DNA from: Leucoraja ocellata
Taxonomy: Eukaryota
Direction: 5' to 3'
Length of the DNA: 64,000 bases
Assembly (NCBI GenBank): GCA_036785375.1
Contig: JAWMAR010000323.1
Span: 2,108,001-2,172,000 of the forward strand
This document shows positions 6,001-9,000 of this stretch, one piece after another (positions within the stretch are counted from its first letter, which is position 1; every line of letters starts with the position of its first letter). The position numbers are program-made.

Positions 6001-9000
6001 TGTTTCCAATTTGTACTGATGGCAAAATAAAGAATCAATTGCATAGGGATGAGTTGTGACCCAGTATTCTTCAGAGATTCCCAGTTTACAGGGAATTATG
6101 GTGTTGAACGACGAGCAGTATTAGATAAAAAATAGGCTTGCGTATAACCACACATTGCAGACAAATATTTGGTTGCTGGATGGTGAGGTGAGGTGAAAGG
6201 GAGTGCTTTTCTTCTCCTGCTGCATGGTAAAGTGCTGTGGGCGAAGCCATGAGTATTGGTTGAGTGTGAAACAGAACATCCTGGGGTGCATTTGGTATAT
6301 TGAGGAGAGTGGAAGATGTGCCTAGTGATGGCATCATGTTGAGGGATATTGAGGCCAACTGACTTACTTAATCCTTCTTCTTGCGTATGGCATGCACAGC
6401 CTAAAGTTGTAAGACAACTTGTTCTGTTTGATCTTCTGTTTGTGCACGCCAGGTTGATTGCATTCGTTGAAACAGGGTGGACCACGTGAAGGTTGCAATC
6501 TCCCACCCCACTTACTTAATGCAAAATCATACGTGTTGGAAACTGAGGATGAGGGGAATAATATCCGAGTTCTTGGAATGCACAGGTATGACAGCAAAAA
6601 CAGGAAAGCTGGTTACACAAAAAAGCTGGAGAAACTCAGCGGGTGCAGCAGCATCTATGGAGCGAAGGAAATAGGCAACGTTTCGGGCCGAAACCCTTCT
6701 TCAGACTGATCGGGGGCGGGGGTGGGTGGGGACAAGAAAGGGAAAAGGAGGAGTAGCCAGAAGGCTGGGGGATGGGAGGAGACAGCAGGGGGGCTGAGGA
6801 AGGGGAGGAGACAGCAAGGACTAACAAAATTGGGAGAATTCGATGTTCATGCCCCCGGGGTGCAGACTCCCCATATTCCGTTTGGGGAGTCTGCACCCCG
6901 GGGGCATGAACATCGAATTCTCCCAATTTTGTTAGTCCTTGCTGTCTCCTCCCCTTCCTCAGCCCCCCTGCTGTCTCCTCCCATCCCCCAGCCTTCTGGC
7001 TACTCCTCCTTTTCCCTTTCTTGTCCCCACCCACCCCCGCCCCCGATCAGTCTGAAGAAGGGTTTCGGCCCGAAACGTTGCCTATTTCCTTCGCTCCATA
7101 GATGCTGCTGCACCCGCTGAGTTTCTCCAGCTTTTTTGTGTAACCTTCGATTCTCCAGCATCTGCAGTTCCCTCTTAAACAGGAAAGCTGGAATGGACAT
7201 ATTGAATCATAGGTCATAGAGATAGGCAGTGTTAAAACATGCCCTTCGGCCCAACTTACCCACATCGGCCAACATGTCCCAGCTACACCTGTCCCACCTG
7301 CTTGGTCCATATCCCTCCAAACCTGTCCTATCCATGTACTTGTCTAACTGTTTCTTAAACAATGGGATAGTCCCAGCCTCAACTACCTCCTCTGGCTGCA
7401 AGTTCCATACACCCATCACTCTTTGTGTGAAAAAGGTACCCCTCAGATTCCTATTAAATCTTTTCCCCATCACCTTCAACTTATGTCCTTATTGTCCTCG
7501 ATTCCCCTACTCTGGGCTAGAGACCCTGTGCATCTACCCAATCTATTCCTCTCATGATTTTGTATACCTCTATAAGATCACCCCTCATCCCCTTACTCAA
7601 ACTCTTCCAAAAGTTCACACCCTCTGGTCCTGGCAACATTCTTGTAAATCATTTTTGAACCCTTTCAAGCTTGACAATATCTTTCCTATAACATGGTGCC
7701 CAGAACTGAACATGATATTCTAGATCCAGTCTCACAAACATTTTATACAACTGCAACATGACCTTCCAACTTCTATACTCTATACTCTATAAGAAGGCCA
7801 ATGTGCCAAAAGCTTTTTTGACCACCTTATCTAACTGCGGCTCGACCTTCAAGGAACCATGCACCTGTACTTCTAGATCCCTCTGTTCTACAACACTCCC
7901 TAAAGGCAGTGCCGAATTTAGATCAAGAGAGGCCCTACGCTATTCCACTTGTGAGACCCCTCCTAATCCCCCACCCCCATGACTAGTGGAAGATGGAAAA
8001 GTGTTTAAAATAATTTGAATAAAGCCAAGGATGACGACGGGTGTTTTATTACTAACCCGACAGTGGCACTACACAGCAGGTTTCTAGCAACGATTATCAG
8101 CTCTACCCCTACCATTGCTCCTTGCCAACTTCCTAGTTCAATTGTCTTTGCACTTTCCTACTTATCCCTGAGTTTTGACTTTTTAAGCCTGCAAGTATCC
8201 AAAGATGTTCCGTGCACCCGCCATCGCTGCTTACTGGAGCACGTGTGAAAGTTTGCCGGACCCCGGAGCCACCAGATTGACACCAATGTGCAGCCGAGCA
8301 TGGCCAATGAGATAAGGGGCTGGAAAGCTGCGCTTTTTAAAAATGTATTTATTGCCAGTGCTAGTGTCGAGTTATCGGCTCAAAACAGTATTATTCTGAA
8401 ATGGAGGGCAAGGAAAATTACTGAAGGGTTGTTTAAAGACTACAGTGCGTTGTGACAGCATATGCAAGAAAGGCCTATGACAGTGTCAAAAATATTATAC
8501 ACCTTGGCTGGAGGCCCCCTAGATTTTGAGGCCTTCGGCTTCAGCCTGCCAAGCCCATAGGTAAATCCGGCACTGCCCAGAGGCCTACCATTTACTGTGT
8601 AGGTCCTGCCCTTGTTAGACGTCCCAAAATACAACACCTCACACTTCTCTGTATTTATCAGAACATGCTGTTTGACTGGTCTATATAGTAAAGGTATTGA
8701 GGTTAGTAATATTAACGGTTTTAATAAAGGATTCCATGAACGTGATGTTTAATTAGACTCCCAGATCAATCCTTTCTACCTATGCTTTATTTGGTTTTAC
8801 TCATTCTTAAAAATAATTACCTAGTGCAACAAATGAGAGATGTCTCAACACTTTTCTTTTAGGACAAACACAATTCACATGGCAATAGTGAATTCACATG
8901 GCATTTCACAAGAGTTACAAAAAAATGAGTCTCTGCCGACATCAGAAAGTGAAGTTCAGGTTATTAATACTTTCAAATGAAACCCACTTCAGAAGATCCT

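What the first reader, a model, noticed from the sequence alone, without database searches (positions are those of the whole stretch)
6598..7191. Perfect 535-bp palindrome made by a Penelope-like snap-back insertion
Seen: two 263-bp arms (6611-6873 and 6883-7145), exact reverse complements by eye, around a 9-nt spacer, then ~35 nt of unpaired tail, all inside a 15-bp TSD. It is therefore one insertion event rather than two adjacent copies. Known: Penelope-like elements form inverted or tandem pseudo-LTRs with a 30-40-nt tail. Inference: the cDNA folded back at the spacer and copied itself. Zero mismatches imply a very recent event. Such a hairpin could give long dsRNA if transcribed and is a potential cruciform/fragile site.
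Basis: partly seen in the sequence, partly recalled or inferred. Interest (0 to 1): 0.72.

Follow-up and report, generated by a model that had tools for sequence, protein, structure and literature searches.

The report
Hairpin-shaped Penelope-like retrotransposon insertion
A young, 5'-truncated copy of a Penelope-like retrotransposon in a shark or ray genome inserted as a perfect head-to-head inverted duplicate, which is the known odd way this element class inserts, so it is a clean but ordinary example.

Summary
The arms 6611-6873 and 6883-7145 are 263 nt and 100% complementary, with a 9-nt spacer. A one-sided tail (7146-7176) is 31 nt, not about 35. An exact 15-nt direct repeat flanks the whole structure.

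Each arm is the 3' end of an endonuclease-bearing Penelope-like element (PLE). It holds the last 19 codons of the RT/GIY-YIG ORF plus the 3' UTR. An inverted 5'-truncated copy, a roughly 31-bp tail on one arm only, and a variable target-site duplication (TSD) are published PLE hallmarks.

The same window holds two more head-to-head pairs (44482-44692; 9340-9545). It also holds a copy whose inverted part is the tail alone (868-1406).

All outer ends fall at two termini 31 nt apart. This matches the two reverse-transcription start sites shown in vitro for an Anolis PLE, which extends both target strands.

Two of the four composite copies carry tail sequence that their longer or direct arm lacks. 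Pure cDNA snap-back cannot make those. I therefore favour priming from both target strands, joined by a template switch at a native hairpin. Snap-back remains possible for this copy.

The insertion is real, recent and ordinary. The window is not human.

The parts
6598..6612 (.). Left copy of the target-site duplication (AAACAGGAAAGCTGG). Its last GG overlaps the arm.
6611..6873 (-). Inverted arm: PLE 3' end in antisense orientation. It ends outward at ...GTGTAACC, the tail-less 'proximal' terminus.
6874..6882 (+). 9-nt spacer. It continues the direct copy in sense orientation and in frame with the ORF, so the direct, tail-bearing copy is 9 nt longer than the inverted one.
6883..7145 (+). Direct arm: PLE 3' end in sense orientation.
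6873..6932 (+). Last 19 codons plus the stop of the PLE ORF (IFRLGSLHPGGMNIEFSQFC*). They align to the C-termini of RT+GIY-YIG proteins of rays and sharks. The mirror image lies in the left arm.
7052..7079 (+). Hammerhead-like core in the 3' UTR: CTGAAGA, an extra A, GGGT/GCCC around TTCG, GAAA, CG, TT. The mirror copy is at 6677-6704 on the minus strand.
   Evidence: Read. The features are listed in Cervera 2014. No Rfam hammerhead match.
7123..7159 (+). Two copies of TTCTCCAGC (7123-7131 and 7151-7159), 28 nt apart. Each lies 14-17 nt upstream of one of the two 3' termini.
   Evidence: Read. Weaker CCAGC(A)T repeats appear in older families.
7146..7176 (+). 31-nt tail, present on the direct arm only. 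It ends at the 'distal' terminus.
7177..7191 (.). Right copy of the target-site duplication.
44482..44692 (+). Sister insertion A. It has a 14-nt TSD, head-to-head arms of 79 nt with 1 nt between them, and a tail on the direct arm only. Its centre is the element's own palindrome GTTTCGG-C-CCGAAAC. It is 100% identical to the finding over 115 nt.
868..1406 (+). Sister insertion B. It has a 17-nt TSD (16 of 17 matching). An inverted tail-only piece lies at 885-918. The direct copy 919-1389 reaches into the GIY-YIG coding part and ends tail-less at ...CCTTC.
9340..9545 (.). Older head-to-head pair L, with arms 83% complementary. The tail is on the left (minus) arm only. The 4-nt centre AGGG is contiguous with the tail-less right arm.

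Best explanation
This is one recent retrotransposition of a 5'-truncated Penelope-like element (EN+, with a C-terminal GIY-YIG), in the canonical PLE form of an inverted copy with a tail on one arm.

My confidence that it is a single PLE insertion event is about 0.9. For the path I commit to the following, at about 0.45 (the confidence value given for this explanation is that of the full path):
1. The element's endonuclease nicked both target strands 11-15 nt apart.
2. Both 3' ends primed reverse transcription on the element RNA, at the family's two adjacent start sites. The right-flank bottom strand primed at the distal site, which gives the tail. The left-flank top strand primed at the proximal site, ...GTGTAACC.
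3. Both cDNAs stopped within 9 nt of each other near the end of the ORF.
4. One cDNA then switched template onto the other, giving a perfect head-to-head palindrome.

Shown here: the anatomy, the PLE identity, the two classes of 3' terminus, and sister copies that self-copying cannot explain.
Inferred: the priming of both strands in this particular copy, the order of events, and the template switch.
For: Identity:
- The arm encodes IFRLGSLHPGGMNIEFSQFC*. Six of these 20 positions are invariant across 7 aligned sequences, and identity to the others is 55-70%.
- Copy B of the same family extends into ...RRLGDCFAEH..., which is 64% identical over 58 aa (E = 4e-21) to a window ORF with a GIY-YIG match.
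- Homologues combine RVT_1 and GIY-YIG. Seven of the 10 hits carry ray or shark species names.

Anatomy versus print:
- An inverted 5'-truncated copy, and a 30-40 bp tail often at one end only (Craig 2021, passages).
- A 31-bp tail on one of the inverted pLTRs, within a TSD (Arkhipova 2013, passages).

Two termini:
- I read 22 arm ends: the 21 arms plus B's inverted piece.
- Eight end with the tail. Seven end tail-less within about 5 nt of GTGT(C)TA(A)CC. Seven are decayed or unclear.
- In all 4 composite insertions, exactly one side carries the tail.

Self-copying excluded for 2 of the 4 composites:
- In B the inverted piece is the tail, which the direct copy lacks apart from a 5-nt overlap.
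- In L the longer arm is tail-less and the shorter arm has the tail. L's left outer segment matches other tails (P <= 0.008); its right outer segment does not (P 0.14-0.80).

In vitro (Frangieh 2024, main text read):
- The Anolis PLE nicks and extends both strands.
- It starts reverse transcription at two adjacent internal sites, and the stretch between them is the tail.
- The start sites do not differ between the two strands.
Against: - For this copy alone, every feature also fits a fold-back of the tail-bearing cDNA. The spacer is short and contiguous with the tail-bearing arm.
- Double priming needs an extra assumption to bring two cDNA ends within 9 nt of each other, such as a shared stop on one RNA or a collision of the two enzymes.
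- B and L belong to older subfamilies (about 90% and about 75% identity to this copy), so their path need not be this copy's path.
- The one-tail rule rests on only 4 composite insertions. If each side carried the tail independently with probability 0.5, the chance of 4 of 4 would be about 0.06.
- I classified the ends from alignments by eye, not by a formal test.
- No reads, other individuals or other genomes could be examined.
Confidence: 0.45

Rival explanations
1. Single-cDNA snap-back. The cDNA primed at the distal site folded back at the 9-nt loop and copied itself. The copy ended at the body/tail boundary because the bound protein/RNA blocked it, or because the element's endonuclease cut there.
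For: - The spacers are tiny in all 3 head-to-head pairs (9, 1 and 4 nt).
- The centre lies at a native inverted repeat in A and L. In this copy a CA/TG microhomology is possible, since copy B reads CCTCA-TATTCCGCT-TGGGG at the same place.
- The spacer is contiguous with the tail-bearing arm here and in A.
- Arkhipova 2013 reads palindromes at inverted junctions as self-priming.
- Craig 2021 ascribes the tail to endonuclease-mediated resolution.
Against: - It needs an added, unshown step to stop exactly at the family's second natural terminus.
- It cannot make B or L, where the tail sits opposite a tail-less direct or longer arm.
Confidence: 0.35
2. Assembly or read artefact: a fold-back chimera wrote a palindrome that is not in the genome.
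For: - Perfect palindromes can be artefacts.
- The window contains a 200-N gap (17557-17756), so the assembly is scaffolded.
- Craig 2021 notes that PLE structures trouble assemblies.
Against: - An exact 15-nt duplication flanks it, and the 31-nt asymmetry coincides with the family's natural tail.
- Two further pairs show the same architecture. One has arms diverged to 83%, which no artefact would produce.
Confidence: 0.05
3. The palindrome formed after insertion. A simple insertion was duplicated in inverted form later, for example by hairpin-capped break repair or replication template switching.
For: None specific. Such rearrangements exist (recalled, from no call).
Against: - The TSD encloses both arms.
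- The inverted arm ends at a natural element terminus directly against the TSD.
- The form recurs only in PLE copies. All 3 close inverted pairs (30 nt or less between arms) among the 7 pairs in the window are PLE 3' ends.
Confidence: 0.03
4. Two independent insertions in opposite orientation at the same spot, or a non-PLE foldback or MITE-type DNA transposon.
For: The window does hold a MITE-like inverted repeat at 55350-55660.
Against: - There is one TSD, with none between the arms.
- The two arms have truncation points only 9 nt apart.
- The arms carry a retroelement ORF end and 3' UTR, and the ends are asymmetric.
Confidence: 0.02

Closest known systems
Canonical EN+ Penelope-like element insertions with an inverted pLTR and a one-sided tail, such as Pen2a_Av of Adineta vaga (Arkhipova 2013, PMC3846280, passages; Craig 2021, PMC8557442, passages)
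   Same: Head-to-head inverted 5'-truncated copy. A 31-bp tail on only one of the inverted repeats. A single TSD of variable length around the whole unit. A palindrome at the inverted junction.
   Different: There the inverted pLTR abuts a pLTR-ORF-pLTR unit. Here there is no internal unit: two 263-nt 3' ends meet across 9 nt. The host is an elasmobranch.
PAc (Poseidon of Anolis carolinensis) in vitro (Frangieh 2024, PMC11167929, main text read)
   Same: There are two adjacent 3' termini about 30 nt apart, and the stretch between them is the tail. Both ends of the composite insertions look like reverse-transcription starts, as expected if both target strands are extended.
   Different: - In PAc the start sites lie 111-118 nt inside the next ORF, in an AC-rich stem-loop. 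Here the termini follow a repeated TTCTCCAGC motif, and no ORF start is visible.
- The related window copy has a CX4CxxC linker motif, which is absent from Penelope/Poseidon.
- No biochemistry was done here.
L1 twin priming, which gives 5'-inverted LINE-1 inserts (name recalled; one search gave only a search listing, for example PMC4245944 and PMC2912911)
   Same: Both target strands prime cDNA on one RNA, giving an inverted segment inside one TSD.
   Different: As recalled, twin priming joins different segments of the RNA, giving an inversion and not a palindrome. The second primer anneals internally, and there is a poly(A) end and no tail. Here both arms copy the same segment and both start at defined 3' sites.
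Snap-back (hairpin-primed) second-strand synthesis by reverse transcriptases (recalled, from no call)
   Same: A short loop at the 5'-truncation point and perfect arms.
   Different: It predicts that the copied arm cannot hold sequence absent from the first cDNA. That prediction fails in 2 of the 4 composite copies in this window.

Membership tests
Penelope-like elements (EN+, C-terminal GIY-YIG) | [quoted passage not shown] | tested here: met
   - This copy keeps only the last 19 codons, which align to the C-termini of such proteins.
- Copy B extends to RRLGDCFAEH....
- The related window ORF 13412-13966 reads ...IYCIICSRCGLLYIGET... Its GIY-YIG match is E = 2e-4 at 22.0 bits, just under the 22.6 cutoff.
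- Homologues P0005 and P0009 pass the cutoff (23.2 and 27.6 bits). P0005 also has a partial RVT_1 upstream, at 22.7 bits, below the 29.6 cutoff.
Penelope-like elements (EN+, C-terminal GIY-YIG) | RT that groups with PLE/telomerase RTs | not tested
   The window holds no RT of this family, and no tree was built. The RT fragments nearby (for example 5615-6034 on the minus strand) are LINE-type and not PLE.
Penelope-like elements (EN+, C-terminal GIY-YIG) | 5'-truncated copies arranged as tandem or inverted pseudo-LTRs | tested here: met
   Head-to-head inverted arms are seen here and in 2 further loci, among the 18 loci that match a profile of the 3' core (22 hits).
Penelope-like elements (EN+, C-terminal GIY-YIG) | An optional 30-40 bp tail at one end of the unit | tested here: met
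   A 31-nt tail sits on one arm only. All 4 composite insertions have exactly one tail. Simple copies occur both with and without it.
Penelope-like elements (EN+, C-terminal GIY-YIG) | Target-site duplication of variable length | tested here: met
   TSDs of 15, 14, 17, 12, 8 and 17 nt are found at six copies. Each is uncertain by a few bases at the junctions.
Penelope-like elements (EN+, C-terminal GIY-YIG) | Hammerhead ribozyme motif in the pLTR | tested here: inconclusive
   - The sequence shows the core boxes.
- It also shows three traits named in Cervera 2014: a base between positions 9 and 10.1, a G-C pair closing helix II, and a palindromic CG at 15.2-16.2.
- However, helix I is poor (4 of 6 pairs in my reading) and helix II shows no double compensatory change among families.
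- No Rfam hammerhead model matches even at E <= 10.
- The authors' search descriptor is in a supplement that I could not see.
Neptune/Nematis-type PLE (as against Penelope/Poseidon) | CX2-5CxxC motif in the linker before the endonuclease | tested here: inconclusive
   The motif is present in the related copy at 13412-13966 (PCNRRRCNTC) and in homologues. The family of the finding itself is truncated downstream of that point in every copy in the window.
L1-type twin-priming inversion | An inverted 5' segment that differs from the 3' segment, with a poly(A) end (recalled) | tested here: not met
   The arms copy the same 263 nt and there is no poly(A).
Hairpin RNA gene (miRNA precursor families of Rfam) | A score at or above the family's gathering threshold | tested here: not met
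   The best match is MIR1437 at 130.5 bits against a threshold of 168. Every match in the table is below threshold, and nearly all lie across or within the palindrome arms. The whole window has 0 matches at gathering thresholds.

The most novel reading that the evidence does not exclude
The composite copies in this window are natural records of concerted, two-ended target-primed reverse transcription by a dimeric PLE particle. The two nicked target strands use the two adjacent start sites of one RNA, one each, which is why exactly one side carries the tail. The cDNA primed at the distal site has two possible fates. It may stall after the tail, giving the 'inverted tail only' form at 868-1406. 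Or it may displace the first cDNA, stop at the same hairpin and switch onto it, giving palindromes such as this one. The repeated TTCTCCAGC motif upstream of each terminus would be the duplicated signal that sets the two starts.
Probability: 0.3. Interest if true: 0.55.

Novelty: new member of a known kind. Interest (0 to 1): 0.27.

Why it matters
The insertion itself is ordinary. Inverted pseudo-LTRs with a one-sided tail inside a TSD have been described for PLEs since the mid-2000s.

Its value is as clean material. The copy is perfect and young, and in the same 64 kb it has sister copies that separate two models of how PLEs build inverted repeats. How these structures arise is still stated as open in the PLE papers read here. 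A genome-wide census of such copies in this species could test whether both target strands prime in vivo.

For annotation, such palindromes produce spurious hairpin-RNA matches and mirror-image ORFs.

Tried and rejected
- **Rfam.** I scanned the region, the direct arm alone and the whole window. There was no hammerhead match. The only matches were sub-threshold miRNA-type hits caused by the palindrome.
- **RNA fold of the direct 3' end (7040-7176).** It is no more stable than shuffles (z = -0.21; 80 of 200 shuffles fold as well). An 8-bp pairing of AGATGCTG with the tail's CAGCATCT appears in the fold but has no support from variation.
- **Is the target an old PLE end?** I aligned the rebuilt empty site against 7 element ends on both strands. 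Thirteen of the 14 comparisons gave P >= 0.05. One gave P = 0.01, uncorrected, over a 14-nt stretch. Rejected.
- **Paralogous empty site.** The flanks have no uninterrupted copy in the window. Only the repeat that starts at 7213 has a relative, at 35789-36383.
- **Does the TSD resemble the element's end?** Here it does: 12 of 15 to the reverse complement, P about 0.003. The 4 other TSDs tested do not (P 0.28-0.80). I treat this as unexplained or chance.
- **Does the right arm of pair L carry a decayed tail?** It is not detectable (P 0.14-0.80). The candidate 13-nt TSD of L therefore stays doubtful.
- **Is the RT next to the finding (5615-6034, minus strand) part of the same element?** No. It is LINE-type.
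- **Not examined.**
  - The genome collection on hand holds only bacteria and archaea, so no other copy of this genome or of a related one could be read.
  - Paper supplements were closed and not requested. They hold the Frangieh 2024 supplementary figures on genomic tail ends and the Cervera 2014 descriptor, and they may bear on the tail and hammerhead points.
  - No spliced gene model was involved.

Full report
**Observation**

- Arms 6611-6873 and 6883-7145 are 263 nt and 100% complementary, with 9 nt between them.
- The right arm is followed by 31 unpaired nt (7146-7176).
- The whole structure is flanked by an exact 15-nt direct repeat at 6598-6612 and 7177-7191. With up to 2 mismatches the repeat has 3 matches in the window against 0.26 expected, and 0 of 100 shuffles reach 3.
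- Two bases at each junction could belong either to the element or to the target, so the duplication is 11-15 nt.
- As single-stranded DNA the stretch folds into one hairpin of -384.5 kcal/mol, against -96.7 for shuffles (z = -49.5).

**What the arms are**

Read in sense, the direct copy (6874-7176) begins inside an ORF. Positions 6873-6932 encode IFRLGSLHPGGMNIEFSQFC followed by a stop.
- A 90%-identical copy at 919-1389 extends further upstream into ...RRLGDCFAEHLCSVRNNQADLPVAQHFN....
- That stretch is 64% identical over 58 residues (E = 4e-21) to a window ORF at 13412-13966.
- The 13412-13966 ORF reads ...PCNRRRCNTC...IYCIICSRCGLLYIGETKRRLGDRF... and matches Pfam GIY-YIG at E = 2e-4. The score of 22.0 bits is just under the 22.6 cutoff.
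- A search for longer relatives of that ORF found 10 proteins at E <= 1e-5 among 161 candidates. Seven carry ray or shark species names.
- Of the three scanned, two pass the GIY-YIG cutoff and one also has a partial RVT_1 upstream.
- In the alignment, the 20 residues of the finding sit on the conserved C-terminus of these proteins.

[quoted passage not shown] The arms are therefore the last 19 codons plus the 3' UTR of a PLE.

PLEs are reported absent from mammals, and the best hits are elasmobranch. I take the window for a shark or ray contig, not human. No spliced model was involved.

**Comparison with print**

- Craig 2021 (passages) describes strong 5' truncation, an inverted 5'-truncated copy abutting the unit, and a 30-40 bp tail often at one end only.
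- Arkhipova 2013 (passages) describes an insert with an inverted pLTR, a 31-bp tail on one of the inverted pLTRs and a 9-bp TSD. It reads palindromes at inverted junctions as self-priming.
- The finding is this known architecture reduced to its two 3' ends.

**Relatives in the window**

A profile of the 3' core gives 22 hits in 18 loci. Three loci are head-to-head pairs:
- the finding itself;
- A (44482-44692), with a 14-nt TSD, 79-nt arms, 1 nt between them and a tail on the direct arm, 100% identical to the finding over 115 nt;
- L (9340-9545), an older pair with arms 83% complementary.

All 3 close inverted pairs (30 nt or less between the arms) among the 7 inverted pairs of 40 nt or more in the window are these PLE ends.

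A fourth composite, B (868-1406), has a 17-nt TSD with 16 of 17 matching. Its inverted part is the tail alone (885-918). Its direct copy ends tail-less at ...CCTTC, so the two parts share only 5 nt.

**Two termini**

I read 22 arm ends.
- Eight end with the tail (...CTCTTAA or its older forms).
- Seven end tail-less within about 5 nt of GTGT(C)TA(A)CC.
- Seven are decayed or unclear.

This classification is my reading of alignments. Only pair L was tested against shuffles.

In the finding, the direct arm ends at the distal terminus and the inverted arm at the proximal one. The same holds for A. In B and L the tail also sits on one side only, so all 4 composites carry exactly one tail.

Frangieh 2024 (main text read) reports three relevant results for an Anolis PLE:
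- it nicks and extends both target strands;
- it starts reverse transcription at two adjacent internal sites, with the tail being the stretch between them;
- the start sites do not differ between the two strands.

**Mechanism**

- The spacers are 9, 1 and 4 nt.
- The centres of A and L lie in the element's own hairpin sequences.
- In the finding the 9 nt continue the tail-bearing arm.

Snap-back has two weaknesses.
- A self-copied arm cannot contain sequence that the first cDNA lacks. In B the inverted piece is the tail that the direct copy lacks. In L the arm that is longer at the centre is the tail-less one, while the shorter arm has the tail (P <= 0.008 against other tails; the right outer segment gives P 0.14-0.80).
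- Snap-back alone gives no reason for the inverted arm to stop at the family's second natural terminus.

Priming from both nicked strands at the two start sites, joined by a template switch where both cDNAs stop, accounts for all four composites. I commit to that model at about 0.45. Snap-back with an added endonuclease or blocking step gets about 0.35 for this copy. Artefact and later rearrangement together get under 0.1. The weak points are the small number of composites, the age of B and L, and the extra assumption needed to bring two cDNA ends within 9 nt of each other.

**Age and consequences**

- Zero differences in 263 paired sites puts arm-to-arm divergence under about 1.1%, by the rule of three (my inference, barring gene conversion).
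- Sister copies are 125 of 126 and 115 of 115 identical, so the family was active recently.
- Nothing here bears on transcription. The insertion lies between LINE fragments: a LINE-type RT at 5615-6034 on the minus strand and a repeat starting at 7213.
- Pair L, with a 4-nt centre, has survived to 17% arm divergence. Such palindromes are therefore not quickly lost in this genome.

**Hammerhead**

The UTR holds CTGAAGA, an extra A, a 4-bp helix with a tetraloop, GAAA and CG (7052-7077). This fits traits listed for PLE minimal hammerheads (Cervera 2014, passages). However, helix I is poor, there is no covariation, and no Rfam model matches. The question is inconclusive.

**Verdict**

This is a real, young and well-preserved PLE insertion of a known kind. 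The neighbouring copies point instead to two-ended priming.

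Noticed in passing
868-1406: A PLE copy inside a 17-nt TSD. Its inverted part is only the 34-nt tail (885-918), while the direct copy lacks the tail. The 9-mer ATCGAAGG(+A) at the inner end of the inverted tail recurs 12 nt into the direct copy, within coding sequence.
   Followed up: partly
9340-9545: An older head-to-head PLE pair. The tail is on the shorter arm, and the 4-nt centre is contiguous with the tail-less arm. Its TSD is uncertain.
   Followed up: partly
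18854-18979, 23656-23750, 26007-26108, 30775-30868, 34568-34670, 45227-45331: Six short simple copies from young and old subfamilies all begin within about 6 nt just upstream of the CTGAAGA box. TSDs confirm this for three of them. The cause could be a discrete short RNA or non-autonomous unit, or a strong stop at the C-rich tract.
   Followed up: partly
7123-7131 and 7151-7159: TTCTCCAGC occurs twice, 28 nt apart, each copy 14-17 nt upstream of one of the two 3' termini. The tail looks like a diverged duplicate of the terminal module. Older families keep CCAGC(A)T at both places.
   Followed up: partly
6598-6629: The TSD matches the reverse complement of the element's end at 12 of 15 positions (P about 0.003 against random window sites). 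Four other TSDs show nothing similar. Unexplained.
   Followed up: yes
13155-14244: A 5'-truncated PLE of a related family inside a 13-17 nt TSD (AACCATTTCAAGTTACT). It has the CX4CxxC linker and the GIY-YIG domain, an in-frame stop, a deletion across the hammerhead-like region and a tail-less end.
   Followed up: partly
6713-6732 (mirror 7024-7043), 6763-6819: A G-run tract with quadruplex-type spacing lies on one strand of each arm; it is a long poly-C in copy B. A 29-nt tandem duplication lies in the UTR and is shared with copy B.
   Followed up: no
6636-7046 (-) and 6710-7120 (+): Mirror-image 136-aa open frames. Both are by-products of the palindrome, as are the sub-threshold Rfam miRNA matches.
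   Followed up: yes
5615-6034 (-), 20606-21562 (-), 24316-25527 (+), 33300-34352 (-), 35279-35563 (+), 48331-48834 (+), 49913-50308 (+): LINE-type RT and endonuclease fragments (RVT_1, zf-RVT, Exo_endo_phos_2, ALKBH8_N-like). Among the 87 ORFs of at least 90 aa that were scanned, no Pfam domain other than these retroelement-type ones and the PLE GIY-YIG was found.
   Followed up: partly
55350-55660 and 4724-5093: Two other inverted repeats: 72-nt AT-rich arms 167 nt apart, and 50-nt arms 270 nt apart. Neither is related to the PLE. The first looks like a MITE.
   Followed up: no
one search hits: Some database relatives of the PLE protein are named as host genes (mucin-2 isoform, divergent protein kinase domain 1C isoform). 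These are probably gene models that swallowed a PLE fragment.
   Followed up: no
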